A DNA stretch of 64,000 nucleotides from Vulcanimicrobiota bacterium (GCA_963714015.1 OY970223.1:352001-416000); one strand, 5' to 3'. Counted from the first letter of the stretch, positions 43,066-62,659 are shown. Notes: generated by a model from the sequence alone, not told the origin. A program made the numbers and translations.

Positions 43066-44392
43066 ATGTCAGGAATTATCGACGGCAAACCCAAGGCGCC
43101 CGAATCACCGGCCGTTGCAACGCCGCTGGCTGCCGGCGGACTGAAAGGAAAAGTCACCGGCGTAACGCGCATGAGCTCGCGCGCCGGATTCATCGCGATC
43201 GCCGCGCTGGCCGTAATCGTCTTCGCGATCTTTTACGGCGTCACGTCCAATACCGCACACTCGAATTCGAACCGCGTTGCGGCGGCGGAGCCGACACCGC
43301 AAGCAATCTCGACGGACGTGCCGATTATCGACGACATCCCGGGCGCCAACGCCGGAGCAGCGCCGGCCGATCCTCGCGGGAACGGCTCGCGCGACAACGA
43401 ACCGCACCGGCCGGCAAGGGGACAATCGCCGCAACAGGAGCAGGCCGAACAAGCGCAGCAGGCCGCGCAGGCTCAGCAAACCGGGCAACAGCAACCGGCT
43501 GGGCAAAACCAGGCTCCGCCCCAATTGCAAAGTGCGCCGCAAGTGCAAGCGGCTGCACAGATTCAGAATGCGGCGGCCATGGCGCAAGCGATGCTTCCGC
43601 AGCAGCCTACAGCGGCCGAAATGCGCTCGCAGCAAGCCGCAGAGCTGGCAATGGTGAAACGGTCGCAGCAGGATCAAGTCGCAGAGGTCGAGCGCAACGC
43701 ACGGCAGTCGTCAATCCTGATCGGCGGCGCCGCATCGAATGCAGCGCCGGCGACTGCGTCCACTCCCGCAAGCTCCCAGACGCAAGATGCATCACCGTAC
43801 GTCGTGCAAGAGGGCTCCGTCATTCCGGCAACGCTGCTGACCGGGCTCAATTCCGATTTGCCGGGAACGGTGATTGCGATGGTCAATCACGACGTCTATG
43901 ACTCTCAGACCGGGAAATACCGGTTGATTCCAGCCGGCTCCAAGCTCGTCGGACGCTTCGAATCGCAAGTCGTCCAGGGACAGAGCCGCGTGATGGTCGG
44001 GTGGAACCGGATCCTTTATCCGAATGGAACGTCGGTCGACATCAGCGGCGCCGAAGGTGCCGATGCGGCCGGCTACTCCGGCTTCACCGGAAAAGTCGAC
44101 AAGCACACGAATATTTTCAATACCATCTTGAGCAGCATTATCGGCATCGGCACCGCGATCGTCTCGCAACCGCGCGTCGTCATCGCCGGGCCCGTCGGCG
44201 GAGCCGTGGTCATGCAGCCCTCAGTCGGACAGCAAGCGGCGACTCAAGCCGGGCAGCAGGCTTCAACAGCAGATCTCGCAATCGAACAACGCGAGCGGCC
44301 AGCAGCGTCCGACGATCGAGGTACGACCCGGGTACATCTTCAACATCTTGGTGAACCACGATCTCGTCCTGGCGGCACCGTACGAAAATTGA
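43066..44392 (+). CDS. trbI: TrbI (VirB10), frameshift near 44265
   Basis: GSVIPATLLTGLNSDLPG, DAAGYSG..GKVDKH; true end RPTIEVRPGYIFNILVNHDLVLAAPYEN* lies in the shifted frame. Confidence 0.88.
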
Positions 44393-44403
44393 ATGCTCCA
44401 CAG

Positions 44404-44958
44404 ATGCGCCGAATCGGCCGGAGCGGCGCGCTCGTTCTGGCGATTGCCGCGCTAGCCGACGGCATGATGGTTGGAGCGCATGCCCTGGGCCTGCGCCTCA
44501 ACACGACGCCGAGCATGCCGATGGGGATCTATCGCGTGCAGCCGGCTGGAGGCGCACAACTGCAACGGGGGACAATCGTTGCAATCTGTCCGTCCAGACG
44601 CGCACTGGCGGTCGCGATTCCGCGCCGCTACTTGATGCCGGGACACTGCGCCGGGAACGTCGAGCCTTTACTGAAACACGTCGCCGCCGTTGCCGGAGAT
44701 CGCGTAGAGGTGTCCGACGCCGGCGTCGTGGTTAACGGTACGCCGCTGCCGAACAGCGTTCGTCTGCAAAGCGACTGCGCGGGACGTTCGCTTCCGCGAA
44801 TTCCGTCCGGGCGCTACGTCATTCCCAACGGCGAGGTTTGGCTTTATGCGCCGGTGGCGCGCAGTTGGGATTCCCGCTATTTCGGTCCCACGCCGGCCGC
44901 GAACGTCGTCGGCATAGCGACGTCTATTCTAACGATAAGCCGGACAGCAACTTGCTAA
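44404..44958 (+). CDS. traF: Conjugative transfer signal peptidase TraF (S26, pilin maturation)
   Basis: NTTPSMPMGIY, LLKHVAAVAGD and SWDSRYFGP. Confidence 0.88.
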   Translation: MRRIGRSGALVLAIAALADGMMVGAHALGLRLNTTPSMPMGIYRVQPAGGAQLQRGTIVAICPSRRALAVAIPRRYLMPGHCAGNVEPLLKHVAAVAGDRVEVSDAGVVVNGTPLPNSVRLQSDCAGRSLPRIPSGRYVIPNGEVWLYAPVARSWDSRYFGPTPAANVVGIATSILTISRTATC

Positions 44959-47766: not shown

Positions 47767-50599
47767 TCATCCGGCGCGCGCCTCGCGCCGAAGTCCGTGA
47801 AAGGCTTGCCATACCGTGGCAATCAGCCCGTCCTCGGCCGCCATGGGAATGCCGATGCGGTTGAAATGCATATGGAGCAAGCTGGCGCAAAGCTCGTCCG
47901 AATCGACGGCGAGGCGCCCCTCTCTTCTTTTCGCCATTCCGGAGGATCGGTCAGCATCCCGCGAATTCGCCGGACGCGAGGCCATTGAACGTTACGGGCC
48001 GCGCGCGCGATTTCCCGATTGCGCTCCATCCAACGATCGCCGTCAAAATGTTCGAACCATTGCTGGAGGAAAGCGCCGGCGAAAAGGAGCGACGCGGTGA
48101 CGCGCGACTCCCAAGTCAACGCGGGAGCGGAAGCGATAAACTCCAGCGCACGTCCGCTGTCGACGTGAAAGAGTTGCTCTGCGAGCGGCATCGCAGCCGC
48201 GCCGCCGTAGCGTTCCAGCTCCGGGATGTACGTATCCAACGCGTAGCGCGGTATCAGACCGCGACCGACCAAGGCCGTCAAAGCGCCGGCGAGCCCTGCC
48301 AGCAACGCTTTGCCATCGCCCGGCGTGTGGAATCGAATGCGCAGATGTGGTTGGGGGTCGGCATAGCGCAGAAAGAACCAACGGTCGATGGAGGCTCCGT
48401 TCAAAGACGCAAACAGCAGCGGAATCGATCGGATCAGCCCATCGATCTCCGATGCCGGGCAGTAAAGTTTCGCAAACGCCCACTCACTTCCCGGAGCAAA
48501 GGATTCCGCCGGGCCCGTTTCGGTGAACGCGGCGCTGCGGGCGGGGCGCGGCGCGGCCTGCGGCGCAATACCGGCGACGAACTCGTGCAAATAGCGCTCG
48601 CCGTCCTTAGCGAGCCAGAGGTGATCGAAGTCGGGAAACATCTCTTCCAACCGCAGCTTGGACCCGATTGGATAGCCGTCGTTGCCTGAACCCATTTGAT
48701 CGCGAATCAATTCAACCGATACGGGCGAGTCGAGATCCAAAAGCAGGCTCGAGATCCCGTTCCACGAGATAGACCCATCGCGGCACGTTCCAGCTTTCGC
48801 GCCAGTGCTGCAGGAACCGGTTCAAATCGTCTTTATGCGCGAACAGTTCTTCTCTCGTGAGCGTCCATACGGCCGGAGCGAGCACGAGCCTTTCATAGCG
48901 GACGCGCGGAGTGAACGGCATTTGAGCGGCGAAACCCCATGACCACAAGCGCGGAAGAACGTGATCTTGTTTTCCGATCATCGAAAGCAGCCGCATGTGG
49001 GGCGGCCCGAAGTAGGTCACCTGCAGCATGTAACTTTCTTTAATGAGCAGCCTGCGTTTGAGCGTGCGCGAATATGCGACGAATCGCGTACCTTCCAGGC
49101 CAATCAGAATATCGCGCGGCTCGATGCGGACGACACCGGCGGGCAATCGCTCGCGCCGGCCGGCCACGGCATAGCCGCTCGCAGGCACTTGCAGCAAACC
49201 GGCATAGTGCTGATCGTGCGGCGTGAATACGAGTTCGACCGGAAGCGGCGCATTGGGATCGGCGTCCGAGGACTCTTGAAGTGCGCCCGCGTCGATGTCG
49301 AGCGCTTCGGCAAACCGGTGGACCGTTTTATACGTGCCGTCCGTGGCCAGTCCGTGAACGGGACGAATCAGATAATTTCCCTCATCGAGATCCGCCCGAT
49401 CCTTCGCCGCGATTTGAAAACCGATCTCGCAGCCGTTCGTGCACGATGAACTCTCGGGCTGCAATCCGAGAGGCTGCAGATCTTGCCGCTTCAGCACGGC
49501 CTCTCGGCATCCGTCACGCAGTGCGCGGGCGATCAGGCGGGCTCGCAGATCGTCCTTTACTGCATCCGGCGCATCGGGCAGGTCCATCGGATCGTCCGGT
49601 GCTCCGATTCCGGAATCGGGGTCGACGAGTTCGAGCAGCGGTATGCGCCTGGAGTCGCCTTCGTAGCGCTCCATGAATTTGGACCGATATTTGGCGAGTA
49701 CCCGGGGACGCGCATTTGCAGTCATCAATGAAGCAAGAACGCTTGCGTCGGAGATCACTCGTTCCCCGAGCGCTCCTTCAAATGACTGAATCATGTTGAC
49801 TTGCGTGCCGGCCGGAACGCGGGCAGCGAAAATTTCAGTTGCGGCTTGCGGCGCTCGTTCGGGCGGTTCGCAGCCGGAAGGCCGCGTAAAAATCAGACAC
49901 CCGATATCGAGCAGCTTGTTTGTAGAGCTGTTCGGCGGCAGCCGGCGGCATTTGCAGCCTGTCGCACAAGGCGGTGCGCAGATCGCGCAGCGGCCGGTCG
50001 ATCGACGCGATCCGCAATATCTCCTCGAGCTGAGCCGACCAGCGAACGTTGAGCGGTTCGTAGTGCAGAATAACCGGATCGGCCGTATCCAAGCCTCGAC
50101 GCAGCCGCTCGGGGTGCCGTATGTGCAGCCGGTCGCCCCGCAAGACCAGCAAATCATTGGCGACGACCGGCAGATCTTCGCGTAACGTCCGATCGCTTTC
50201 ACTTGCCGCCAGTGCTGCATGCGTTTGGGCCGGATCGGTCGCCACGAATAGTTCGGGCGCCCGCGACGAAAGCTGCAACGTGGACGCGGGTCCTTGCTGC
50301 ACAACACCCGTGCCGGCAAACAGGCCGAACGGCGTGCTGCGGGTCGCCATCCGAAGCGCATAGGCGAGGGCCTTCAGCGGCGCGCGTTTCTTCTTTGCGG
50401 CGCCGCCGCGGCTCCACCTTTTGAGGCTTTCATGCAAGCTCGGCGACGCCAGAGCGATCGCCGCATCGAACAGTCCGGACTCGCGCAGCAGATCGCGCGT
50501 TGCCTCAAGCGGATCCGCCGCAGCGAAAATGTCGCGCGCAACGCGTGCCGGGAACATCGGAACCCGTCCGGTCAGCAGCACGATCCGGTTCTTGCGCAT
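47767..50599 (-). CDS. lanB: Full-length lantibiotic dehydratase (glutamylation + elimination domains), 3 frameshifts
   Basis: YALRMATRSTPFGLFAG; FTPRVRYERLVLAPAVW; HEFV; WFFLRYADPQPHLRIRF; YIPELERYGG; SLLHMHFNRIG. Confidence 0.88.
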
Positions 50600-50926
50600 C
50601 TAAGGACCGACCACCGTCACGCTTCCGCGCATGTACGGATGCGGTTCACAGTAATAGTCGTACCGGCCGGCCTTGTGAAAGGTCGTCGTCCAGGACTTGT
50701 GCCAGTCGATCGGTCCCGAATCGATCGATTCCGCCGCTTGCGCGGTCACGGTGTGCGCTTGTTCGTCCTCGTTGACGAACGTCACCGAATCACCGACGTG
50801 AACGCGCAGGTTTTCGGGATGGTAACTATAGTCCGCGATGTGTACGACGTAATGGTGGTGGTTCGACGCACCCGGAGCGGCCGCTAGGAGCAGCACCGCG
50901 GCGATGGACGAAAGAAGTATTTTCAC
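50600..50926 (-). CDS. Cupredoxin (amicyanin/plastocyanin-like blue copper protein)
   Basis: Signal peptide; AHTV and YYCEPHPYM type-1 Cu ligands. Confidence 0.9.
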   Translation of the reverse strand: MKILLSSIAAVLLLAAAPGASNHHHYVVHIADYSYHPENLRVHVGDSVTFVNEDEQAHTVTAQAAESIDSGPIDWHKSWTTTFHKAGRYDYYCEPHPYMRGSVTVVGP

Positions 50927-50947
50927 GAACGATCCCTGCCTTTTCTT

Positions 50948-52645
50948 TTAAAGAGAGAACACGTAGAGTTTGCCGCCTCGAGGCACGTGCGCGGTCAATT
51001 GCGCAGCAGGCCCGCCGAAAGCCGCGAGTCCGCCGCCATATCCGCAGTAAACGGCCACGTACTGTTTACCGTCGACCATATACGTTACGGGCGGCGCAAC
51101 GATTCCCGATTGGAGCTGCTGATGCCAGAGCACCTTACCGGTCTTTGCATCGAAGGCGTAGAAACGGCCGCCCGCATTTCCGCTAAATACCAGGCCGCTC
51201 GCTGTGTCGAGCACGCCGCCGGTCCAAGGATAATCGCTGGGGTGCGTCCACACTTTTCGCCCGGTCAGCGTGTCGATGGCGCTCAATTCGCCGAAACCGT
51301 GCGCACCGGGTTCTGCAACGGTCAGGGACACTTCGCCGAAATAGCCGAACCGTTCGCGTAAATTCCCCGTTCCGGTTACTTGCGCGCACAGGTGCAATAT
51401 CGGAACGTACGCAAGTTTCGTCACCGGACTGTAGGCCATCGGATACCAGTTCTTGCCGCCGCCCGAACTAGGGCAGTCCAGCACCGTCTTGCCGACTTGC
51501 GGGTATTTTTGCGGATCCAGTATTGCCTTGCCTTGCGAGTCGTATCCGAGAATCGTGTTGTTCTTTACAAAGGGCCGAGCGTAAATGAGTTTGCCGCTTC
51601 GGCGATCGATGGCGAAGAAGTATCCGTTGCGATCCGCGTGCACGATTGCCGGAATACGGCGTCCGCCGCGCTGCAGTGTAACGAGCACCAGTTCGTTGAC
51701 GCCGTCGTAATCCCAAGAATCGTGCGGCGTATATTGGTAATACCACTTCATCGCACCGTCCGACGGGTCGAGTGCGAGCAGCGAATCCGTAAAGAGGTTC
51801 GCGCCGGGACGCTTTCCGCCGAACCACGGACCCGGATTTCCGGTTCCCCAAAACAACGTGTTGGTCTGCGGATCGTATGAACCGGTAACCCACGTGTCGC
51901 CGCCGCCGCGTTTGTACGCACCAGCGGGCCAAGTATTTCCTCCGGGTTCGCCGGGCGACGGAACGGTCCATCGCTTCCATAACCGCCGGCCCGTCTGCGC
52001 GTCGAATGCCGCTATGAACCCACGCGCGCCGAATTCGCCTCCGGCCACTCCGGTGATAACGCGTCCGCCTACGACGAGCGGCGCGCCGGTGATGGCGTGA
52101 TCTTTTCCGACCGCGACGACTTGACGGCTCCAGACGAGGCGACCGCTTTGCGCGTCGAGCGCGATCAAACGATCGTCGATCGTTCCGAGGAAAACATCGT
52201 TTCCATAGAGTGCTACACCGCGGTTGACGACGTCGCAGCAAACCGCGCGCAGCGCTTGCATGGAGATGTTCGGCACGTATTTCCAGAGTACGCGTCCGCC
52301 GGCTGCGTCCAGCGCGATCACGGTATCCATCGGCGTGGTGATGAACATCGTGCTCCCGTTGACCACAGGCGGAGATTCGTGCCCCTGCGGCAAGCCGGTT
52401 ACGTACGTGAATGCGACGTGAAGCGATCGAACGTTGGAGGGAGTGATCCGAGTGAACGGCGCGTACGCGCGGCTGTCGTAAGAACGGCGATACATCAGCC
52501 ATCCGTCGTCGCCGCCGGCCTCGAGAAGGCGAGCGTTGGTAACACTTGGATAGTCTTGATTCGCGCGGCCGTGGAGAGCCAACGGTCCCCAGAACAGTAA
52601 GACCAGAAAACCGCAGCAGAGCAGGAAGCGCCCTATCACTTTCAA
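50948..52645 (-). CDS. PQQ-dependent alcohol dehydrogenase, lanthanide-type motif (ExaF/PedH/XoxF-like)
   Basis: Signal peptide; CCDVVNRG vicinal Cys, GGEFG, WGTGNP and HDSWDYDGVNE; TTG start overlaps the upstream TGA. Confidence 0.9.
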   Translation of the reverse strand: MKVIGRFLLCCGFLVLLFWGPLALHGRANQDYPSVTNARLLEAGGDDGWLMYRRSYDSRAYAPFTRITPSNVRSLHVAFTYVTGLPQGHESPPVVNGSTMFITTPMDTVIALDAAGGRVLWKYVPNISMQALRAVCCDVVNRGVALYGNDVFLGTIDDRLIALDAQSGRLVWSRQVVAVGKDHAITGAPLVVGGRVITGVAGGEFGARGFIAAFDAQTGRRLWKRWTVPSPGEPGGNTWPAGAYKRGGGDTWVTGSYDPQTNTLFWGTGNPGPWFGGKRPGANLFTDSLLALDPSDGAMKWYYQYTPHDSWDYDGVNELVLVTLQRGGRRIPAIVHADRNGYFFAIDRRSGKLIYARPFVKNNTILGYDSQGKAILDPQKYPQVGKTVLDCPSSGGGKNWYPMAYSPVTKLAYVPILHLCAQVTGTGNLRERFGYFGEVSLTVAEPGAHGFGELSAIDTLTGRKVWTHPSDYPWTGGVLDTASGLVFSGNAGGRFYAFDAKTGKVLWHQQLQSGIVAPPVTYMVDGKQYVAVYCGYGGGLAAFGGPAAQLTAHVPRGGKLYVFSL

Positions 52646-54894
52646 CGCACCGTCCCCCGGCCGCTGCGAATTTCGTAACGGATCGACCACGTGCGCGCAA
52701 TCGGGACTCCGAGGAATTGAACGGATCCGCTCGTCGTGGGGGAAGCGGCAGCGAACGCCGGAGACGTAAACCTTCCGGCATCCTCGTTGAACAAGTTTTG
52801 CACCGAAAACACGATCGCTCCGTTATTGACGTTGAAACGAATGCCGGCCGAAGTACTACTGTACGCCGGCAAGTGCGCTGCGTTATTTGCGTCGACGAAA
52901 GCCGTTCCTACTCCAACGGTTACCGCCGGAGTGTGGTATGAGAATATCGCGCTCGCGCGATGCAGCGGCACGTTCCAGATTTGCGAGCCTGGGATCAGCG
53001 TTGAATTCTCGCCCGCAGGGAGCGCCGGCACGCCGGCAGCCGTCGCCGCATACGTCTCATAAGCCACGGCAAGATTGAAATTAGCGCCTAACGGCGAGTT
53101 GACGGAGGCGTACCATTCCTTGTCGACGCGCAGCGGCACGGTTACGTAGTGCATGAGATACAAATCGCTTGCGGTCAGCGGGCCACCGCCGCACAAGTAA
53201 GCGTATTGCTCGTTGAGTGCTTGCAAATAGCCGGACGGCAATGCGGCGCCCCCGGCCTGGGCGGCGACAACTAGCGCATCCTTCGTCGCGTCGTAAAATC
53301 CGCCGAGCGTGACGTTCGCCCTTCGCAGGCGTCGCGTTATCGCAGCCGTGACTCCCGCGCTGTGCGGGGGGTCGGGCGTGACCTGGCTCGGGCCGGAGGC
53401 GTAAGCGGCGTGCGAGCTGCAGTCGAAATCGGCAGCTCCGGGCACGGCAAGGCGGAGCGCCTGCGCGTAATACGTTTCGATGGTCTGTGTTTGCGCGGTA
53501 TATGCGTCCCACTTTAAGCGCGTAGCGTTACTCCAAGCCGAACCTTCGATGGATGCATTGACGTGCGCAGCCGCGAATGCTCCGGTTCTCGCGCCGAACT
53601 GACCGTCCCGGTGACCGACGACGAACGGCCGGTGCGATTGTAACTCATTGAGGCCGTCGTTCCGGAGCTTTTCGAGACCGTTTCAAACGGCTGTGCGTAC
53701 GCATCGGCTATCGTTTCGGTGTTGCTGAGCGAGAGCGTTGCGCTGTTTTGCCCGAAGCGCCGCGTAAAATTCAACATGTCGTAGCGTCCAGAGTATCCGA
53801 ACCCGGTGTAGTCGGAATCGGCGTTCCTTCCGCCAGCGCATCGATGTCGTCATCGTCCGCCGAACCGGCATACGCGACGTGCAGCGCAGTCCAATCGTCA
53901 CGTCCGCGCGTTTGCGCCGCGCGAATATAGCCGTCAAGCATTCGCGTCCGCTCGGTGTTGCCCGGGCCCGAACCTTCCGCAATCCCGCCGGGATCGACCA
54001 GCGAGAGTTGTGCGTTACGCCGGTCACTGCCCAGTGCCACTGCACTCACGCGAGCGCCGCCCAACCGGAATTCCACGTCCGCAGAGGCGGCCAGCTCGTG
54101 TTCGTTCGCCGAATGATCGTAGGCCGCTCCGCTTTGATCGAAAAACGTTTGGCCCGCAAGGGCGCCTTCGCCCAAGCGATCGGAGAGCACGAAGGCATAG
54201 TTCGGCCCCGTCAGCGTTCCTTTCAGCGCTTCATCGCCTTGCGATCCGCTCAGGATCGAGAGCTGCTGCTGCGGCGTGCCCGTCGGGCTTTGAAGATGAA
54301 GGTTCGGCGTAATCGAGCCGTCATCGGCTTGATCCGGAGTGAACGATTCGACGAGATCGCTTGGAACCGTAAAACGCGATTCCTGGCCTGTAGGGAGCGT
54401 GAGCGGCGTGCCGTTCAGTTCCAACGGTCCGGATCCGCCTTCGGATGCAGAGCGGTAATTCGGCACGAAATTCAGCGAATCGGTCACGCTGCCGCTGATG
54501 ATTGCGGCGACGCTCGCGGTGTTCGTCTGCAGCGCCCGAGCGGGAGCTTGGCGACGACCGAATCAATCGTTCGCAGCCCGAACGTCAAATCGAGCGTCGG
54601 ACTGTCGGCGACTTGTACCGGCGATGCGCCGTCTTTGCGCCGTGCAAAGATCGGAGTGCCTGCGACGGTTTCGACAGTCGCCCGCCCGTCGGATCCCGTG
54701 ACGCCGATATATCGCTCGGCGTCGCGGTCCTTCGCGTAAATCGACGCCGCGGAAACGGGGTGGCCCGTCGCGTCGCGCACGAAGACTTGCACCGTCATCA
54801 GTTGCGGACTTTGAACCTGGCCTGCCGATGCGGTCCCGGCAAGAGAAGCTGCGAGAGCAACGGCGCTCAGCACGTAACAAAGAAGCCTAGCCAT
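52642..54894 (-). CDS. TonB-dependent-receptor-like outer membrane protein (several frameshifts)
   Basis: Signal peptide; carboxypeptidase-regulatory-like N-domain (VRDATGHPVSAASI); beta-strand-rich body; C-terminal SVQNLFN...PIARTWSIRY. Confidence 0.65.
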
Positions 54895-55631
54895 AGCAAG
54901 CGTTTTCGTTACGGCGATATCCCCAAATAGCCAGTGCACCGAAGAGCGTTGCGTAAATCGCCAACGTCACGAATGCCGTCACGGTCGAGGGGTCTCCGCC
55001 AACGGCCGACCACACCAGCTCGCCGTATTGACGGGTCGGGCTGAACGGTGAAATCGCAGCGACTACCGGCGGCAGAAACTGCGGCGGAAGCCACAGCCCG
55101 CCGATGAACGCAAGCGGCAAGTAGGTGAGATCGGTAATGGGCACCGACGTCTTCGGGCTGGTCCAGTAGCCGATTGAAAGGCCCATGACGCCGAAAACGC
55201 CTCCGCCAATCAGTAGTGCAACGGCAAACCGGAGCCAAGCGACGGCGGATAACGTAACGTGTCCGAGCAGAATCGCGCAAGCAATGACCAGCGCCGCCGT
55301 CGCGGTCGCGAAGATCAATGCGCAGACGAGGCGCGATGCGACACGCACGCCGGCGCCCAGCGGCAGCGTCCGAAGATATGAATCCAGACGGACGCGCGAT
55401 CGTGCGCGATTCCGACGCCGAATTGAAAGAGCGCAACGCCGATTACCGCGAACACAGCGTACGATGCCAGCGCGTAACGAGCAGATCCGCGTTCTTCGAG
55501 TACGCCAATCCGAAGAATACGTAAAGCATCGTCGGAAGGGCAAGCGACGGAACGGAGTACGCCGGCACCCGCAGCAGTTCCAAAGTAGAAAATCGTGTAT
55601 CGAGCCAAAAGTTTCTGAGCGTCTCACTCAT
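54887..55631 (-). CDS. ABC-2 exporter permease (frameshifted)
   Basis: ELLRVPAYSVPSLALPTMLYVFFG...LRTLP...YLPLAFIGGLWLP...LP. Confidence 0.8.
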
Positions 55632-56478
55632 GATGCCCTCCAACCATTCTCAAGAAGACGTCCTCGAGCGAAGGCGCGGCGATTTCGAGATCGCGATAAG
55701 GGATATTTCTCTAGAACAATTCGCGCACGACCGCGTCGGGGTCGGAAGTAACGATGCTGTACCGGTTTCCGGCGATCGTCGCATTGGCGATTGGCGCCGG
55801 AACGGTATCGCTGGTGAAGGAAACTTTGCGAGCGCCGGACTGCGCGGATCGCGGCGATCGGCGCGTCGTCAAGACGCGTCCACAGGACATGACTATCGCG
55901 CGCGAAGCCAACGCTTCGGCTTCCTGCAGGTAATGCGTCGTGAGCAGAACGGTTGTTCGGCTTGCGACGATTCGGAAATCGCATGCCACACGCGCGCGTC
56001 TTCTACGTCGAACTGGTTGTGGGCCGTCCAAGACGACGAGCTGCGTTTCCGGTAATGCGAGCGCCGAACTGAGCGCCGCTGCTCGCGCCGCTTAGGCCGC
56101 AACTTGGCGGCGCGCGAGTTTCGAAAGACGAAACGCTCGAGCAGCGCGCCGAGCGGCACAGGATTCCGCGCAGCGTCCAAACGTAGCCGGCGACTCGCAG
56201 ACGTCATGGCGGCCGGCAGTCGTTGTTTTGCTGCGTAACCGATCAGACGCCGCGTGCGCATGGAAAGAGGCCGCTCTCCAAAGACGCGCACGTACCGCCG
56301 TCGAACGCCAGCTCCAGCACGCTGATCGTCGTTGTCTTACCGGCGCCGTTAGGTCCAGAAGCGCTACGCGTCTCCTGCTTTAATGTCGAACGAGACGTCC
56401 TTTACGGCGGCGGCTCCGCCGTAGGATTTGTGCAAATTGCGCACGGCGATGACTGTTTCAGTTTTGAGCGATATACAC
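55628..56478 (-). CDS. ABC exporter ATP-binding subunit (many indels)
   Basis: VRNLHKSYG...GPNGAGKTT; VLLTTHYLQEAEALA; SLEDVFL. Confidence 0.75.
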
Positions 56479-56479
56479 G

Positions 56480-56998
56480 GGATAGGTCCCCTTTCAGATT
56501 TAGGCGCGCGCTTTGCGCAAGCACGATCTCGTTATAGGTGACGTGCGCGACGATCGCCGCGCCCACCGAACGGTGAGCAGCGCAGCAGACGAAGACTAAG
56601 CCGTCGCCGGATGGTGCGACGCGCGCGGATTGACGACGCGTGCATCACGCAAATCCGGCGGTCGTCAGCAGCAGGGCAGCTGCGGACATGGCCGCGCAGT
56701 TCACGCCAGCCTCTCCAGATGATCTCTTCGGACGCCGCAACGACCGCAAGCGCCGTTCCGGTCAAGGCAAACTTTCGAAGCGTTGCGGCGTCCGCAAAGT
56801 ATGGAGGCTTCGGAAGCCGCCGAACAACACGGCGTAGAGCGCCGCGCCCATCAGAGCGCCGAGCAACAGCAGCGGCAGATCCGAAGACATCCGTGCGGTT
56901 ACGCTTGCGTCGATCGCCAAAATTGCGGCGGCGACGATCGCCTGCAGCACGAATCCGGCAAGTACGACGTTGCTCGTTGCGGCAGCATTACCGAACAC
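56480..56998 (-). CDS. CPBP (Abi/CAAX) intramembrane metalloprotease (many indels; ends approximate)
   Basis: Hydrophobic segments; EEIIWRG and AHVTYN motifs. Confidence 0.65.
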
Positions 56999-57803
56999 AT
57001 GCTACGCTGTAGATGATGCCTTCGTTGACGCGTCGTTGTTGAGCATCGCGTCGATGTCTTTTTCGTAAAAACGCCGAGCGGAAGCGCGCCAAGCCCAGCG
57101 ATATCGCAGTCAGCAGAGCGTTTTGCGCAACATGGCCGGCCTCGAGGATCGTAAACGGTACGCGCGCAGGCGGTATTTGAGCGGCAGCGCCAAAACGCCG
57201 CACTTATCAGCAGAGTGATGGACGAGGTGTCAACGGCCTCCGGATAGATGCACGCTTCGGCCAGCTTGCGTAGGCGATCTCGGAGATTCGCACGAGACGG
57301 TGATCGGGCGAATCGTAGAAGTAATGCCGCACGGCAGGCCGTCGACGCGATGCACCGCGACGTAGTTGTCCAGCGGGAACAGCCGCCGCCGGAAGGCGCC
57401 GTGCGGAGAAGCTGCTGGCCGCACCGTTCTTGAGTTTGACGCGCTTGGTCACGCCGTAGGCCGAGACAAGATCGTCGCAACTTGCACGAGCGTTATCGGC
57501 TTGGAGAGAATGATTGACTTGACCTGCGCCGCTGCAAGAGGTCGCCGAGCGTCGTGTCCCCGATTCGGGCGCCGGCAGATCCACGGAGGAAGATGCCGGA
57601 TTCGCTTCGAGGACCGCAGGGTGCTAATCAGCGCGTTCGGATTGGTCTGGATCAAGTATGCATTGGTTTGACGCAACGCGCGCGAACGGTAGAGGCTGGA
57701 GGCCTCGTGATAGCACTCGGCCGGATCGTCAAACAGTCTTCTGCGCGACGTCTTCACTGCCGTAAACCAGTTCGAGTGCGTTGATCGTTCTGTATTTCGT
57801 CAT
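56988..57803 (-). CDS. SagB/ThcOx-type FMN azoline dehydrogenase (many indels)
   Basis: YHEAS N-terminus; PS.G..FPL-like segment; ILEAGHVAQNALLTAISLGL. Confidence 0.75.
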
Positions 57804-57815
57804 TTTCTCTGCCTA

Positions 57816-59155
57816 TTAAGGAAAGGGATGCGGAAAATGGTTGATCTCGTGGGGGTCGAGCCGCCGTCCCAGTAAACCTTCGGACACGCCGCCGGTGTAG
57901 ATGCGATCGATTCCAAGGAAACGGTGGGCGTGCTCGGAGTCTATCTGGCACAGCTCAGGACAGAACGCTCGCACAACGCGCAGACCGAGTTGCCGCAAGT
58001 CGGGGGCGGTGACGTCTACGGCGTAGACTTCCATTCCGCGCTGTCCCAAGCGGTTTACGATCGCGTCAATCTGCTCGCACACGGAGGGCCCGCTTACCGG
58101 CGGGACTTCCCTCACGTGCCGGCTCTGCGTCGCCGAGTCCATAAACGCCGACTCTTCGCCATGCGAGCCAAAAGCGTGCAGCGCCACATGGTCTTCGAAA
58201 TCGCGGACTTGCGAAAAATCGCCGTCGGGCTCGGTCCAATCAGGATTGAGAAAGCGCATTTGCCGCGCCCAGGCATATGTCTGGAATGCTTCGCGCACCG
58301 CTTTGCCGGCAGCGTCGATCATGGTTCGCGCGCTCGCGGCGCCGGTCGCGAGTTGCACATAGCCGGTTTCGTCGCGCACGAGCGCCATCGCACTGGGCAC
58401 GTCGCAGAAAGGCGACAAGTCTACGACGGTGTAGCGCAACCCCTTGACGTTATAGTACGTATCGTGATTGAGTTCCATCTCGGCAACTCCGGTACAATCG
58501 ACGATCGGCATCGAGAGCCGCGTGTACCACATCAGCAAAAACGCGTCGCGTTCGACCAGTTCGTATAAGCCCGACAGCAGCGCCTCTTCAAACGTGGGCG
58601 CGCAGGCAACGCCGGAACTCGTGCTGTAGACTACGCGCGGCTCTTCCGGCCGGCGATGTTCGGGCAGATAGCAAAACGCCGAAGGGATCCAAACGGCCTC
58701 ACCCGATCGCAGGTTGGTTCCACGCACCCAGTGCGCCGGCGTGTCGTCGTCGAAGGCGACGAACTTGTCGGTCGTTTCGTATTGCGCTTTCGAAAAGAAG
58801 TTCAAATGCGCGGTAGGCACATGCGGGCCTTCCAGCTCGCGCGCCGTCGAAAAGTGGAGTCTTCGAGCGGAACGTACGAGAGCGAGTACCGCTCTGCCGC
58901 CTCTCCAAGCGCAGCGGCCAACGCCCGGTCGCGGTGCGGATGAATTCCGCCGCTATACAGCGGAACCGAGGCGCCGATGGTCAACTGCGAATCCGCCGCC
59001 AAGCACGTGACGTGCCACATGCGCGGATCGCTGGGCTGGGCCATCATGTGAAAGCGCAGATGCGCGATGCCGGTATACGGCGAGAGCAATTTCTTGAGGA
59101 CCGGCAGCGATTGCTCGAGCGGGGTCACGCCGCTGGGCCGCTTCAACGTATCCAT
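57816..59155 (-). CDS. YcaO cyclodehydratase, azoline-forming (frameshift near 58850)
   Basis: LSPYTGI, ALGEAAERYS, STSSGVAC, LYELVERDAF and C-terminal PHPFP. Confidence 0.92.
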
Positions 59156-59157
59156 GA

Positions 59158-60104
59158 TTAGCTCTCGTACCAGGGCGACGGGGCGGCAACGTTCACGCGG
59201 CCGGAACATTCTGGACAGCGCGGTACGCGTAAGACGTCGTGCGATGAGATCCCGCGATCGCCGAGCGGCGCAAGCGAAATCAGCGTTCCGACCAGCGCTG
59301 GATCGGATGCACCGATCCAGCGCAACGCGTACGTGACGGCGAGGCCGGCAGCCATCATATCAATGGGCATGCATTGCTCGAACGCCGCCTCGGCTTCGTC
59401 GAGCTCAGATACTCCGCGGGGTACTTCACATTGGAAGCGCGCCGCAGTTGAAAGCAGGCGTAACACGCGGTTTCGCCCGGAACGAACAGCGGCCCGATTG
59501 CGGAGAACCGTCCATCGTATGGAAGAATCTGCAGCCACGGCTGCTTTTTGAGGATCGCGGCCTTGTTGATTTCCCGCAGGCGGCTCAACTCGCCCGTCGC
59601 CGGAGCGACGATTGCGAGATCGACTTCCTCGTCGTCAAAACTGGAGAAACTCGAGGTTTGCGCGCCCTCTATTCCGGAGCACAAGAGTCCCCGGAGAACC
59701 TCGCTCGCAGCATTGCTGGACCCTATGACGGAGATGCGCGCGCTTGCGAGGCGATCGCGGACGATTTCGGTCGAGCTTGCACCCCCGATCGATGAGAAGA
59801 AGACGGAAGTGCGCGTCAGCTTATCCTTTTCTGCGGGAAGCGTTCCGTCCATGAGCAGATCGTAGCGTTCCAGCAAACCGATCGCGGCATTGACGACCTG
59901 CGCATCGCTTCCGGAAATCGAAGCGATGTCTTCGACGCTGTGCCGCCCGTCCAGCACGGGCAGCAACTTTGGAAGGATCGCGCCGGCAGCGCGGCCCTTG
60001 AGGCAGATGACCGAGTCGCCGTAGTGGAAGATTACTTGGTCGTCATGCTTGTAGACGCGATACCAGGGTTTGAAGGCTTTGGTTGGCGCAATAGGATCCG
60101 TCAC
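59158..60104 (-). CDS. TOMM leader-binding (RRE + ThiF/E1-like) protein (frameshift near 59405)
   Basis: LDGRHSVEDI RRE; IGPLFVPGETACYAC; VLRVPRCPEC; GTG start after GAGGAG. Confidence 0.88.
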
Positions 60105-60153
60105 GTTATAACTCCTCGGTGAAACGGGGTATAAGAGAGCTGACACCCGGGCC

Positions 60154-60201
60154 CCGGGGGACGCGAGTTTGCCGCGATAATCGACAAACTTGTGCCCCCG
60201 G
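60154..60201 (-). terminator. Long imperfect hairpin between the precursor and the first enzyme gene
   Basis: ccggggg-acgcgagtttgccg / cgacaaacttgtg-cccccgg. Confidence 0.5.
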
Positions 60202-60218: not shown

Positions 60219-60356
60219 CTAGAGAAGCGACACTTTGCAGGTTGTGGACGACGTGCACGTGCTGCTGGCAGCCAGACCCGTTGCATCTTCGTCACCGCCG
60301 ATTTCGGTTACGCTTACGTCGAGCAGTTGGTCGATGTTCTCGGTGATTTGTTCCAT
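60219..60356 (-). CDS. RiPP precursor peptide (45 aa)
   Basis: AAGGAG RBS; MEQITENIDQLLDVSVTEIGGDEDATGLAA-SSTCTSSTTCKVSLL, an acidic leader plus Ser/Thr/Cys core directly upstream of the E1 and YcaO genes. Confidence 0.9.
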   Translation of the reverse strand: MEQITENIDQLLDVSVTEIGGDEDATGLAASSTCTSSTTCKVSLL

Positions 60357-60426
60357 GGTTTTCTCCTTCAGTTGTGTTGTGGGGTTTTTTACAGGCCGGA
60401 CGCTCGGAGCGCGTTGATCCTGCATC

Positions 60427-61075
60427 TTATTGCGACAATTCCCACTGGTAGTTGATGGGAATGTCGGTGTACGTGTGCACGATTTCATGCACGTCGAAAT
60501 GCGTAGCGCTAAAAGCGCCGTTGAGAAAAGCGAGTCGTCCGTTGACCTTGACGTCTTCGCCCACGGTGAATCCATGCGCGATCACGATGTTAGAGTACGT
60601 TCCCGATACCGTCAGGCTGGCGCGATCGCCGGCATTCTGCGAGACGACTTTGACCGGCACGTTTTTCCACTCGGTTTGCGAAACTTTGACCGGCACGACT
60701 GCGCTCCAGACGGCATGCGCAGGCTCTAAGGTTGGCGATATTCGTTCGCAGCACGAGCGGGATCGTGTTGTAAATCGTTACGATGTCGGACGGCGTTCCG
60801 GGCGATACGATCTCGCCGTCGGCGCTTACGGAAGCGTCGAGCGTATTGGTGGTTCCGTCCGTTCGGCGATAGGAAACCACTGCGCGATTCGAACCGGACT
60901 CGGCGACATGCAGAGGACTGGAGAGTGTCGTCGCTCCTCCGTCGGGCGAAACGTGCCCGACATAGTGGAAGTTCAGTGCGACCGAGTCGCCGGCGGCGTC
61001 TACGGGCGGACGCAGCGCTTGCGGCGCGGCGGTTCCGAGAAGAGCCGCGGCCAAAAGTACGGGAGAGATTCTCAT
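60427..61075 (-). CDS. Secreted hypothetical protein, paralog 3 (frameshift near 60725)
   Basis: AGGAG RBS, MRISPVLLAAALLG signal; continues into ORF 60427-60696. Confidence 0.65.
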
Positions 61076-61082
61076 GATGACG

Positions 61083-61771
61083 CTACTCCTGTTCCGGCGC
61101 GGTGCGCGCCATATGCCACTCCAGCGCATCGTTTGCGTCTGAGGTCCGGCGTTAACGAGTTCACTGGCGGCAAAATCGCAGCGATCGAATCCGGCCGGCG
61201 CGACGCGCAGCGCGAATTGGGCGGTGACGTCGATTGGAACGGTATATCCGGCGTAGGACGCAGTAAGCGTCTGCGAACCGGTCCCCTGAATGACCGCTCC
61301 GCCCGACCCGGCCGAGACGATCTTCAGTTGCACGGGCAGATAGCCAATCTGCCCGGAGTCACCGGTCTCGATCGGAACCTGTCCGTTCCACGTCGCACCC
61401 GGCTGCAGCAAAGGAGGCGCGCTCGCAAGCAGACCCGCAACCGTGTTGAATGAATCGATGCGGTTGCCGGCATCGCCCGAATCGATCGTCCCGTCGGCGG
61501 CGAGTTTGCCTGCCGCACTGGCGTTGTCGGTCGACGATTTTCCGGCCGTGACGATCCGAACCGAGCGCGCGTTTCCCACAGTAATCGTCGCGGTGCGATC
61601 GAAGACTACGCGCTGACCGTTCCAAAACGATCCGTCAAACTGCAGGTCGTACGAAATCGAGACTCCCGGCGAAGACGGTAAAAGTATGTGTGGGGCGCCG
61701 GCGACCGAACCTGCCGCGGTTGCGAGCAACCCGGCGAGCGTTGCGCTCGCGCCTCGCGTGAGGGCGTTCAT
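61083..61771 (-). CDS. Secreted hypothetical protein, paralog 2
   Basis: ATGA overlap with the upstream gene; signal peptide; likely ends ...WHMARTAPEQE* after an indel near 61120. Confidence 0.65.
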
Positions 61772-62511
61772 GAGTTCTTTCCTTTCAGATTGACTGTCCA
61801 GTGATACACGCCGCCGCCCGCCGGTACGTTGCGGCGCCCGTAGGTCTCGCGAGCGTACAAAGCCGCGTTCGTCAGCGTGCCGGCACGAAAAACCGCATTG
61901 ACGGAGACGGCGATGTCCGCAGTCAACGGGCTTCCGGCCGCCCCCGCTTGCAATCGGCGTTCGCCTTGTGCCGTAAGCGTTTGAACGTTGCCGTCCTCGC
62001 GCACGGAAACTCTGACCGGAACTGGCGCCGTCAGCGTATTGGATATCCAGCACATGGTCGTTGCGCGCCAGGTCGAACCGGCGACCGTCGAATCCGAATG
62101 CCCGAGCAGCGAGAGCAGCTCGTTGTAATCGAAGACTTGATCCGCAACACCTGAGGCGGTGTCGGGAACGACGATTCCAGCCGAGCCGAAATGCGCTTTT
62201 ATTGCGTTCGAGGTGCGGCTTTCGCGCTTCACGCCCAGATGCAGAATCTCGTCCTGCGTTACGCGGTCGTTCCGCCCGCTGACGATTACGGCGCCCTGCG
62301 CAATCTGCTTGAGATCGAGCAGGCCGAGATAGCGCTCGGAGTAACCGCCATAATCGGCTGAAAAGTCGAACACGTACGAAGCCGACGTCCCAGTGCCGCT
62401 CGGTAGAATATGCAGGCCGCTCGTTGGGAGCGCGACGGAGCCGCCGAACGTCCAGGTGAGGACGGCGATGCCGGCGATCCGGCCGAGGCGGTGGGCGCGC
62501 GAGTTTTTCAC
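61768..62511 (-). CDS. Secreted hypothetical protein, paralog 1
   Basis: GTG start 7 nt after the small-peptide stop; signal-like N-terminus; beta-rich. Confidence 0.65.
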   Translation of the reverse strand: MKNSRAHRLGRIAGIAVLTWTFGGSVALPTSGLHILPSGTGTSASYVFDFSADYGGYSERYLGLLDLKQIAQGAVIVSGRNDRVTQDEILHLGVKRESRTSNAIKAHFGSAGIVVPDTASGVADQVFDYNELLSLLGHSDSTVAGSTWRATTMCWISNTLTAPVPVRVSVREDGNVQTLTAQGERRLQAGAAGSPLTADIAVSVNAVFRAGTLTNAALYARETYGRRNVPAGGGVYHWTVNLKGKNS

Positions 62512-62518
62512 AGCAAGC

Positions 62519-62659
62519 CTACGGGTTCGGCTCGACCGTGTCGAACGGCCGCAGCACATGACCGGCGTGTCCGGTGTACGGATGGACCGTGAACTGCGCT
62601 TGGGCGGCGTGCGGGTGGACCAGCAGTAAGAATAAGAACAGAAACGCTTGCATCGTCAT
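62519..62659 (-). CDS. Small secreted peptide (46 aa), not in ORF track
   Basis: AAAAGGAG RBS; MTMQAFLFLFLLLVHPHAAQA-QFTVHPYTGHAGHVLRPFDTVEPNP*. Confidence 0.7.
   Translation of the reverse strand: MTMQAFLFLFLLLVHPHAAQAQFTVHPYTGHAGHVLRPFDTVEPNP

What the first reader, a model, noticed from the sequence alone, without database searches (positions are those of the whole stretch)
60219..60356. Precursor peptide with ten consecutive modifiable residues
Seen: leader ...LLDVSVTEIGGDEDATGLAA, then SSTCTSSTTC-KVSLL. The ORF track hides it inside a longer 118-aa ORF. The LAA/S junction resembles the thiopeptide/LAP GA/S cleavage site. Inference: up to 2 thiazoles plus mixed (methyl)oxazole/Dha/Dhb, with a possibly removable KVSLL tail; an N-terminal Dha would hydrolyse to a pyruvyl cap.
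Basis: partly seen in the sequence, partly recalled or inferred. Interest (0 to 1): 0.75.

Follow-up and report, generated by a model that had tools for sequence, protein, structure and literature searches.

The report
Precursor peptide of an azole-type RiPP
This small gene encodes the starting peptide of a previously undescribed family of ribosomal natural products whose ten-residue Ser/Thr/Cys core is probably turned into a chain of azole rings and dehydro-amino acids, although the neighbouring enzyme genes look broken in this error-prone assembly.

Summary
Window 60219-60356 (minus strand) is a 45-codon ORF with an AGGAG ribosome-binding site. It ends in SSTCTSSTTC-KVSLL and sits directly upstream of an E1-like/RRE gene and a SagD-type YcaO gene.

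It is a real, conserved gene. About 20 sibling peptides of 42-73 aa share a leader box (LLD[VL]xVT), an Ala|Ser-Ser junction, a core of almost only Ser/Thr/Cys, and a variable short tail.

Four related genomes keep the same order: precursor, E1-like, YcaO, SagB-type dehydrogenase, CPBP/CAAX protease, ABC exporter, outer-membrane barrel, PQQ dehydrogenase. A full-length LanB lies nearby.

This is a streptolysin-S-style azole cluster combined with a LanB dehydratase. It works like goadsporin, not like a thiopeptide. I found no second SpaB_C-type domain (the pyridine-synthase fold) and no LanC in the genome.

Caveat: in this window the cluster genes carry about 32 single-base frame breaks in about 10 kb. 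The genome-wide rate is 0.16 per kb. Amino-acid identity is preserved after frame correction and the relatives' genes are intact, so these are most likely assembly errors. Real decay is not excluded.

The scan has a cluster-level note on this same genome. It has nothing on other DNA.

The parts
60219..60356 (-). Precursor peptide gene, 45 codons plus stop. Leader is residues 1-30 with the box LLDVSVT. Core is SSTCTSSTTC (31-40). Tail is KVSLL (41-45).
60363..60367 (-). AGGAG ribosome-binding site, 6 nt before the ATG
   Evidence: Read
60154..60201 (-). Stem-loop just after the precursor stop codon and before the E1-like gene. It may act as a processing or attenuation element. Support is weak.
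   Evidence: MFE -43.2 kcal/mol for 126 nt, z -2.1. The pattern scan found no U-tract terminator.
59158..60104 (-). E1-like (SagC/ocin-ThiF type) partner protein with an N-terminal RRE. Likely start is GTG at 60104 behind GGAG. One base is missing near 59403-59411, which splits it into two frames.
57816..59209 (-). YcaO cyclodehydratase of SagD type, ending in the Pro-rich PHPFP. One base is missing near 58864.
57014..57803 (-). SagB-type FMN dehydrogenase (nitroreductase family). It is broken by 10-13 single-base indels.
   Evidence: The intact orthologue in G352 has PF00881 at 4e-27 and TIGR03605 at 149 bits.
56504..56986 (-). CPBP/CAAX (Rce1-like, SagE-like) intramembrane protease with an EEIIWRG motif. 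At least 2 frame breaks.
   Evidence: The G352 orthologue has PF02517 at 1.4e-15 and CPBP models.
55639..56498 (-). ABC transporter ATPase, with 7 frame breaks
54887..55627 (-). ABC-2 type permease, with 2 frame breaks
52642..54939 (-). Outer-membrane barrel-like protein with an N-terminal CarboxypepD_reg-like domain, with 3 frame breaks
50948..52690 (-). PQQ-dependent dehydrogenase, intact, linked to the cluster in all 4 genomes
50600..50926 (-). Cupredoxin
47823..50618 (-). Full-length LanB dehydratase (Lant_dehydr_N plus Lant_dehydr_C). It is split by 3 extra bases near 50582, 49840 and 48747.
60427..62559 (-). Three paralogous secreted proteins of unknown function upstream of the precursor, syntenic in relatives

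Best explanation
The 45-aa ORF is the precursor (A peptide) of a linear azole-containing RiPP that also receives LanB-type dehydration.

Inferred mechanism:
1. The leader box LLD[VL]xVT is bound by the RRE at the N-terminus of the E1-like protein.
2. That protein presents the all-Ser/Thr/Cys core to the SagD-type YcaO, which makes azolines. Here that means 2 Cys to thiazolines plus some Ser/Thr to (methyl)oxazolines.
3. The SagB-type flavoprotein oxidises the azolines to azoles.
4. The full-length LanB glutamylates and eliminates remaining Ser/Thr to Dha/Dhb. The invariant Ser-Ser at the start of the core is a likely target.
5. The CPBP/CAAX protease removes the leader at the conserved Ala|Ser-Ser junction.
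6. The ABC-2 transporter exports the product.

Shown here: the gene, its conservation, the gene content and order of the cluster, and the family assignment of each enzyme. Inferred: every chemical step, the cleavage site, and which Ser/Thr go to azole and which to dehydro-residue.

The roughly 32 frame breaks in the window's enzyme genes are most likely consensus errors of the assembly. The cluster is then probably functional in the organism.
For: Precursor family:
- One search found 4 siblings (E 1.5e-17 to 3.6e-5).
- One search found 16 hits at E<=0.001, of which 15 are 42-73 aa.
- In the 21-sequence alignment, Ser31, Ser32 and Val16 are invariant. Ala30, Cys34, Ser37 and Cys40 are at 90% or more.
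- The tandem copies in G352 give pN/pS of 0.40, with 0 non-synonymous changes in the core and the leader box.

Enzymes:
- The YcaO scores 243 bits on TIGR03604 against a cut-off of 219 and ends in PHPFP.
- The E1-like protein matches TIGR03882 in two frames here. Intact relatives pass that cut-off with 45.4 and 43.6 against 36.9.
- The profile of 23 homologues hits TruD, LynD and MusD at 1.7e-20 to 4.6e-17. Its positions 18-85 hit the PbtF RRE at 4e-4.
- SagB dehydrogenase, CPBP protease, ABC genes and LanB are identified.

Synteny in G352, G336 and G372 is shown. All G372 genes give single unbroken matches.

Frame breaks as artefacts:
- Searches count 32 indels in 9.9 kb of aligned cluster genes. 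24 of the 32 are one missing base.
- The only in-frame stop is one doubtful case in the protease alignment.
- The dehydrogenase has 13 indels and is still 153/254 identical to its G352 orthologue. That is the highest identity in the cluster.
- The E1 C-terminal part read in the shifted frame still matches the 82%-identical intact homologue P0021.
- Genome-wide, 35 frame changes were seen in 218 kb aligned to a same-genus genome.
- This single-contig genome scores only 89.6% complete.
Against: - No chemistry, expression or binding data exist.
- In this assembly none of the modifying enzymes has an intact reading frame.
- The break density in the cluster (about 3.2 per kb) is about 20 times the genome-wide estimate of 0.16 per kb.
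- The error spectrum also differs. The cluster has mostly one base missing. Genome-wide, 20 of 23 junctions have one extra base. Real decay in this strain therefore cannot be excluded.
- The PQQ dehydrogenase in the middle of the cluster has no break. That is what selective decay would also produce.
- No reads could be obtained to check.
- That LanB acts on this peptide rests only on linkage in the genomes that carry the precursor: in-cluster in G000 and G336, partly seen upstream in G372, and on another contig beside the PQQ gene in G352.
- No promoter-like site was found.
Confidence: 0.7

Rival explanations
1. The cluster is a decaying relic in this strain. The frame breaks are real mutations, the enzymes are pseudogenes, and the intact 45-codon precursor is a leftover that is no longer matured.
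For: The cluster has about 32 breaks in 9.9 kb against 0.16 per kb genome-wide. The indel spectrum differs from the rest of the genome. The embedded PQQ dehydrogenase (1.66 kb aligned) and the cupredoxin are unbroken. The cluster was not found in the two same-genus genomes, so it is accessory.
Against: Thirteen single-base indels lie within 790 nt of the dehydrogenase, yet amino-acid identity to the G352 orthologue is 60%, the highest of the cluster. That does not fit long neutral decay. No larger deletions were seen, and the only in-frame stop is one doubtful case. The assembly demonstrably has many frame errors in conserved genes. All 22 full-length E1 homologues in the database are intact.
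Confidence: 0.15
2. It is a thiopeptide precursor. Two dehydroalanines of the core are joined by a [4+2] cycloaddition into a pyridine macrocycle, with elimination of the leader.
For: There is weak similarity to the thiopeptide precursor model TIGR03892 (E 0.0018). The core starts with Ser. The LanB C-domain matches TIGR03891 'thiopeptide-type'. The E1 RRE resembles that of PbtF.
Against: The genome has only one PF14028 match, and it is the elimination domain of a full-length LanB. TIGR03892 scores below its cut-off. The clusters in G336 and G372 contain no extra candidate cyclase among the genes mapped. From established knowledge, a 10-residue core is shorter than usual thiopeptide cores. The cluster carries a CPBP protease, which makes leader loss by cycloaddition unnecessary.
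Confidence: 0.05
3. It is a telomestatin- or YM-216391-like macrocyclic polyazole. Leader and C-terminal follower are both cut off and the contiguous azole chain is closed head to tail.
For: The core is an uninterrupted run of heterocyclisable residues. It is flanked by a leader and a poorly conserved tail that behaves like a follower. The telomestatin precursor TlsC is 42 aa with core CTTSSSSS plus leader and follower (PMC5469769, passages read).
Against: No PatG-like, S8 or other macrocyclase-type peptidase was found among the cluster genes. The presence of LanB is not explained. Core length varies from 7 to 13 across the family.
Confidence: 0.07
4. It is an azole-only streptolysin-S-like peptide. 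LanB is merely adjacent and acts on something else.
For: The gene set is a discrete C and D, B, a CaaX-like protease and ABC genes. This is exactly the cytolysin-group architecture described in PMC4603692 (passages read). The G336 sibling weakly touches the streptolysin S model (17.4 bits against a cut-off of 35).
Against: LanB is linked to the cluster in every genome where the flank could be examined. That covers G000, G336 and G372, and G352 via the PQQ-LanB contig. No other LanB substrate candidate is seen. The two family genomes with only a distant YcaO and no such precursor have no LanB.
Confidence: 0.08

Closest known systems
Goadsporin (and spongiicolazolicins, coryneazolisin-type clusters)
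   Same: These are linear peptides carrying both azoles and dehydroalanines. They are made by a YcaO cyclodehydratase, an FMN dehydrogenase and a LanB-type dehydratase, with no [4+2] enzyme (PMC5303826 abstract in the search listing; PMC4603692 passages; PMC10676384 introduction).
   Different: According to those papers, goadsporin uses a fused cyclodehydratase and a split LanB. Here C and D are separate genes and LanB is one 1020-aa protein in G336. The core here is made almost only of Ser/Thr/Cys. No acetyltransferase was seen among the cluster genes scanned. A CPBP protease, an outer-membrane barrel and a PQQ dehydrogenase are conserved parts. The precursor was not compared with GodA because no GodA sequence was held.
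Streptolysin-S-type cytolysin clusters (sagA-I)
   Same: They have a discrete SagC-like and SagD-like pair, a SagB dehydrogenase, a CaaX-like protease and an ABC transporter. The core has 10 or more contiguous heterocyclisable residues (PMC4603692).
   Different: The run is preceded by Ala, not Gly, in 20 of 21 peptides. The core is only 7-13 residues plus a short tail. TIGR03602 is not reached. A LanB is present. The host is an uncultured soil lineage, named Eremiobacterota in other agents' notes.
Thiopeptides (e.g. thiomuracin, lactazole)
   Same: The order of events is azoles first and then LanB dehydration. The RRE-bearing ocin-ThiF-like partner is shared. The leader weakly resembles TIGR03892.
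   Different: There is no pyridine synthase, LanB is not split, and the precursor model scores below its cut-off.
Dehydrazoles (carnazolamide; PMC10676384)
   Same: These are hypermodified peptides in which a Cys/Ser-rich core receives both azoles and dehydro-residues from few enzymes.
   Different: The dehydration enzyme there is a LanM-like DUF4135 fusion and the leader is the long NHLP type. Here it is a class I LanB with a 30-residue leader.
Telomestatin precursor TlsC
   Same: It is a small precursor (42 aa) with a core made only of Cys/Thr/Ser between a leader and a follower.
   Different: The cluster content differs (FAS-like genes, peptidases, no LanB). That product is a macrocycle.

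Membership tests
TOMM / linear azol(in)e-containing peptide (LAP) cluster | YcaO cyclodehydratase of the azoline-forming (SagD) type next to the precursor | tested here: met
   TIGR03604 scores 243.2 bits against a cut-off of 219.25 on the window fragment. PF02624 gives 3e-56. The C-terminus is Pro-rich, PHPFP. It is the only YcaO locus in the genome. The gene has one frame break.
TOMM / linear azol(in)e-containing peptide (LAP) cluster | E1-like partner (C protein) with a leader-binding RRE | tested here: met
   TIGR03882 matches in two frames of the window. Intact homologues score 45.4 and 43.6 against a cut-off of 36.9. The profile hits TruD, LynD and MusD and the PbtF RRE. Actual leader binding was not shown.
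TOMM / linear azol(in)e-containing peptide (LAP) cluster | FMN-dependent azoline dehydrogenase (SagB/McbC type) | tested here: met
   The G352 orthologue scores 149 bits on TIGR03605 against 78.4, and 4e-27 on PF00881. The window copy is recognisable only after frame correction, with 153/254 identical residues.
TOMM / linear azol(in)e-containing peptide (LAP) cluster | Small precursor with a Cys/Ser/Thr-rich core | tested here: met
TOMM / linear azol(in)e-containing peptide (LAP) cluster | Azol(in)e rings in the mature product | not testable with these tools
   This needs mass spectrometry or NMR of the product.
Thiopeptide | Dedicated [4+2] pyridine/dehydropiperidine synthase (a second SpaB_C-like protein) | tested here: not met
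   There is one PF14028 match in the whole genome. It is the C-domain of LanB.
Thiopeptide | Precursor reaches the thiopeptide precursor model TIGR03892 | tested here: not met
   It scores 18.6 bits against a cut-off of 25. The five siblings scanned gave no TIGR03892 hit.
Goadsporin-type azole/dehydroalanine LAP | Azole machinery plus a LanB-type dehydratase, with no cycloaddition enzyme and no LanC | tested here: met
Goadsporin-type azole/dehydroalanine LAP | Fused C-D cyclodehydratase and split LanB (as described in PMC4603692) | tested here: not met
   C and D are separate genes here and in relatives. LanB is a single 1020-aa ORF in G336.
Goadsporin-type azole/dehydroalanine LAP | Precursor homologous to GodA | not tested
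   No GodA sequence was available from a tool.
Streptolysin-S-like cytolysin TOMM | Discrete cyclodehydratase, dehydrogenase, CaaX-like protease and ABC transporter | tested here: met
   The definition is from PMC4603692.
Streptolysin-S-like cytolysin TOMM | Precursor of the streptolysin S family (TIGR03602; Gly followed by 10 or more heterocyclisable residues) | tested here: not met
   The window peptide gave no TIGR03602 hit. The G336 sibling scored 17.4 bits against a cut-off of 35. The residue before the run is Ala in 20 of 21 peptides.
Class I lanthipeptide | LanC cyclase alongside LanB | tested here: not met
   PF05147 has no match in the genome.

The most novel reading that the evidence does not exclude
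The polyazole peptide may not be a plain antibiotic. It could be part of a periplasmic or outer-membrane system.

In all four genomes the cluster keeps an outer-membrane barrel and a PQQ-dependent dehydrogenase between the exporter and LanB. G000 also has a cupredoxin there.

Two readings follow. The peptide could be a metal-binding azole chain, comparable to a chalkophore or lanthanophore, that is exported, loaded and taken back up to supply the PQQ enzyme. Or the PQQ enzyme could be a new kind of oxidative RiPP tailoring enzyme acting after export.

The invariant Ser-Ser start and the all-Ser/Thr/Cys core would then define a new RiPP subclass.
Probability: 0.12. Interest if true: 0.85.

Novelty: new variant of a known kind. 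Interest (0 to 1): 0.55.

Why it matters
If the reading holds, this defines a compact new precursor family: about 20 members so far, with the genome-resolved ones in one family of uncultured soil bacteria. Almost every core residue is modifiable, and two enzyme systems (YcaO and LanB) compete for the same Ser/Thr side chains.

That makes it a clean natural test case for an open question stated in PMC10676384: how timing and selectivity between heterocyclisation and dehydration are set.

The conserved link to a PQQ dehydrogenase and an outer-membrane barrel hints at a function or tailoring step not known for azole peptides.

Practically, the window also shows that this single-contig assembly carries many indel errors. 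Gene calls in it, including the apparently broken biosynthetic genes, should not be taken at face value.

Tried and rejected
- Paralogue search in the own genome: only the self-hit was significant. The next best hit had E 0.13 and was treated as chance.
- YcaO-based scan of genome contigs: only 26-29% identical YcaOs from Ktedonobacteria, Bacillota and Acidobacteriota. Not informative for this family.
The single locus L011 is a chance match in a spurious frame and was dropped.
- Class-level genome search: the G037 hit (E 0.006, 18 residues inside a 254-aa frame) was dropped as chance.
- Representative search: P0016 (523 aa, matched only over profile positions 24-35) was not fetched and is taken as low-complexity noise.
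- The look-up of sequencing runs: none was listed, so the frame breaks could not be checked against reads.
- Complex prediction of the RRE (residues 1-95) with the precursor: no verdict (scores 0.10 and 0.17, mark 0.32). It is no evidence either way.
- Promoter/terminator pattern scan: nothing found.
- ESM Atlas look-up of the upstream secreted protein: only hypothetical-protein clusters.
- Literature searches: no paper describing this precursor family or a YcaO plus full-length LanB plus PQQ cluster was found in the held library. Subscription papers are not covered.
- The search of earlier findings by sequence and by words: nothing.
- Lanthipeptide reading rejected: no LanC.

Full report
**1. 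What is there**

On the minus strand, 60356 to 60219 is a 45-codon ORF. It translates to MEQITENIDQLLDVSVTEIGGDEDATGLAASSTCTSSTTCKVSLL. AGGAG lies six bases before the ATG (read).

The ORF list shows it only as the end of a 118-aa ORF (60219-60575). The upstream part of that ORF overlaps, out of frame, the end of a conserved secreted-protein gene. Siblings P0001 and P0002 start at the same Met.

A run of ten Ser/Thr/Cys is not remarkable by itself in this genome. Eighteen such runs occur in the six-frame translation. No paralogue exists elsewhere in the genome.

**2. It is a conserved gene family**

- The word-indexed search found 4 of 4 candidates. They are 44-48 aa, 59-91% identical, with E from 1.5e-17 to 3.6e-5.
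- A profile of eight sequences against 1.84 billion representatives gave 16 hits at E<=0.001. Fifteen are 42-73 aa peptides. One 523-aa protein matched only through a Ser/Cys-rich stretch and was set aside.
- Genome searches found the gene in G352 (two tandem copies), G336 and G372, besides G000. That is 4 of 385 class genomes at E<=0.01, one of which I dropped as chance. It is also 3 of 401 phylum genomes at E<=0.001. The two samples overlap.
- In the 21-sequence alignment, Ser31, Ser32 and Val16 are invariant. Ala30, Cys34, Ser37, Cys40 and Leu11 are at 90% or more.

The family plan has four parts:
- a variable N-terminus;
- a box LLD[VL]xVT (or ELDxxVV);
- about ten variable residues ending in [AV]-Ala (Ala in 20 of 21, Gly in one);
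- a core that starts Ser-Ser and is made almost only of Ser/Thr/Cys, 7-13 residues long, for example SSTCTSSTCC or SSCCSSSSCCCC;
- a tail of 4 to about 20 poorly conserved residues.

The two tandem copies in G352 differ at 19 codons. Overall pS is 0.30 and pN is 0.12. In the core there are 3 synonymous and 0 non-synonymous changes. In the tail, 3 of 5 codons are changed. This shows purifying selection on the box and the core and relaxed constraint on the tail.

**3. The neighbourhood**

Downstream on the same strand lie, in order:
- an E1-like protein, matching TIGR03882 in two frames;
- a SagD-type YcaO, with TIGR03604 at 243 bits against 219, PF02624 at 3e-56, and C-terminus PHPFP;
- a stretch with no Pfam hit in any single frame;
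- ABC ATPase fragments;
- an ABC-2 permease;
- fragments of a CarboxypepD_reg-type outer-membrane protein;
- an intact PQQ dehydrogenase;
- a cupredoxin;
- LanB, with Lant_dehydr_N in two frames and Lant_dehydr_C in a third;
- a BTAD/AAA regulator.

The relatives resolve the unclear parts. In G352 the gene after YcaO is a 275-aa SagB-type dehydrogenase (PF00881 at 4e-27, TIGR03605 at 149 bits). The next gene is a CPBP/CAAX Rce1-like protease (PF02517 at 1.4e-15). Both are recognisable in the window after frame correction. In G336, LanB is a single 1020-aa ORF carrying both domains.

G372 has the whole set unbroken on a 1.58-Mb contig. LanB lies divergent from a LuxR-type regulator. Then come a secreted protein, the precursor, E1-like, YcaO, dehydrogenase, protease, ABC ATPase, permease, outer-membrane barrel, another secreted protein and the PQQ dehydrogenase.

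In G352 the contig ends in the barrel gene. Another contig carries a 70%-identical PQQ dehydrogenase directly followed by the closest LanB orthologue.

The E1-like family profile hits the N-terminal RRE plus E1-like parts of TruD, LynD and MusD at 1.7e-20 to 4.6e-17. It also hits the isolated RRE of PbtF at 4e-4 over profile positions 18-85.

The genome has one YcaO locus, one PF14028 match and no LanC.

**4. The frame breaks**

A protein-to-DNA alignment that allows frame changes gave these counts against intact orthologues:

| Gene | Frame breaks |
|---|---|
| E1-like | 1 |
| YcaO | 1 |
| Dehydrogenase | 13 (10 with a harsher penalty; 6 against the more distant G336 protein) |
| Protease | 2, plus one doubtful stop |
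| ABC ATPase | 7 |
| Permease | 2 |
| Outer-membrane barrel | 3 |
| LanB | 3 |
| PQQ dehydrogenase | 0 |

This is about 32 indels in 9.9 kb. 24 of them are a single missing base.

For comparison, 421 ORFs from 300 kb of a same-genus genome were searched against G000. Of these, 204 had an orthologue-like hit, with 35 frame changes in 218 kb aligned, or 0.16 per kb. Antisense ORFs inflate both of those numbers. Stricter filtering left 23 distinct junctions, 20 of them with one extra base. Six of these were re-checked.

The assembly therefore has many frame errors everywhere. This fits its 89.6% completeness as a single contig. The cluster, above all 55.6-57.8 kb, is a much worse patch with a different error type.

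I read the breaks as consensus errors, with probability about 0.85, for four reasons:
- After frame correction the dehydrogenase is 60% identical to its G352 orthologue, the best value in the cluster.
- No larger deletions are seen, and the only in-frame stop is one doubtful case in the protease alignment.
- The shifted C-terminal part of E1 still matches the 82%-identical, intact P0021.
- All 22 full-length homologues are about 315 aa.

I could not get reads to prove it.

**5. How it most likely works**

By homology with characterised systems, the RRE of the E1-like protein binds the leader box. The YcaO cyclodehydrates Cys and some Ser/Thr of the core. The SagB-type enzyme oxidises the azolines to azoles. 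LanB dehydrates remaining Ser/Thr. In thiopeptide and goadsporin pathways the order is azoles first and dehydration second (PMC10676384 introduction).

The CPBP protease is the obvious candidate for leader removal at Ala|Ser-Ser. The ABC-2 pair would export the product.

The leader box resembles the FNLD-type box of class I lanthipeptide leaders. That motif is recalled from memory and was not tested here. If the resemblance is real, it would suit recognition by both RRE-bearing enzymes.

If Ser31 is dehydrated, the exposed N-terminal Dha would hydrolyse to a 2-oxopropionyl cap. This chemistry is established for several lanthipeptides, but it is only an inference here.

The fate of the tail is open. 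Its weak conservation is compatible with removal or with a passive hydrophobic end.

**6. Comparison with known systems**

- Gene content equals the cytolysin (streptolysin S) group as defined by Cox et al. That group has discrete C and D, B, a CaaX-like protease and ABC genes, with cores of 10 or more heterocyclisable residues (PMC4603692 passages). Here a LanB is added.
- In chemistry the nearest kind is goadsporin/coryneazolisin: azoles plus Dha and no [4+2] enzyme. Those systems use fused cyclodehydratases and split LanB.
- It is not a thiopeptide by the tests above.
- Dehydrazoles reach similar chemistry with a LanM-like enzyme.
- Telomestatin shares the all-Cys/Thr/Ser core with a leader and a follower.

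I found no paper describing this family. For those papers I saw listings, abstracts and the cited passages only. The library lacks most subscription journals.

**7. Verdict**

This is a genuine precursor peptide of a new variant of the azole/dehydro-amino-acid linear RiPPs.

The conserved PQQ dehydrogenase and outer-membrane barrel are unexplained and carry the most novel possibility.

Other agents' notes name the organism Eremiobacterota. The Atlas look-up of a neighbouring protein from G352 lists Vulcanimicrobiota as the commonest phylum. I did not verify the taxonomy further.

Noticed in passing
window 55600-57800 (and 47800-60200 more widely): This is a patch of very dense single-base indels. 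The 790-nt dehydrogenase has 10-13 and the ABC ATPase has 7. The genome-wide rate is about 0.16 frame changes per kb. Most breaks here are a missing base, whereas genome-wide junctions are mostly an extra base.
   Followed up: yes
window 50948-52690; L018 13452-15164; L046 2-1375; L050 13981-15573: A PQQ-dependent dehydrogenase is linked to the RiPP cluster in all four genomes, in three genera. It lies next to an outer-membrane barrel gene and/or LanB. Its role in the pathway is unknown.
   Followed up: partly
window 60427-62559 minus strand: Three paralogous secreted proteins without any Pfam or NCBIfam family lie just upstream of the precursor and are syntenic in G352, G336 and G372. The one nearest the precursor also shows a frame change near 60730.
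   Followed up: partly
window 60154-60201 minus strand: A GC-rich stem-loop lies directly after the precursor stop codon and before the E1-like gene (z -2.1). It has no U-tract. It may set the precursor-to-enzyme transcript ratio.
   Followed up: partly
window 43066-44958 plus strand: This ORF combines a TrbI conjugation domain with a signal-peptidase S26 domain. It suggests that the cluster lies beside or inside an integrated conjugative element. The cluster was not found in the two same-genus genomes.
   Followed up: no
L017 3211-3512 (G352): Two tandem precursor genes have identical cores and different tails (SVVVV and KIIVV).
   Followed up: yes
genome positions about 536156, 540006 and 2749855 (outside the window): Other Ser/Cys-rich runs occur in six-frame translation, for example a 14-residue Ser/Cys/Thr run. 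No YcaO lies near them, so they are probably spurious frames.
   Followed up: no
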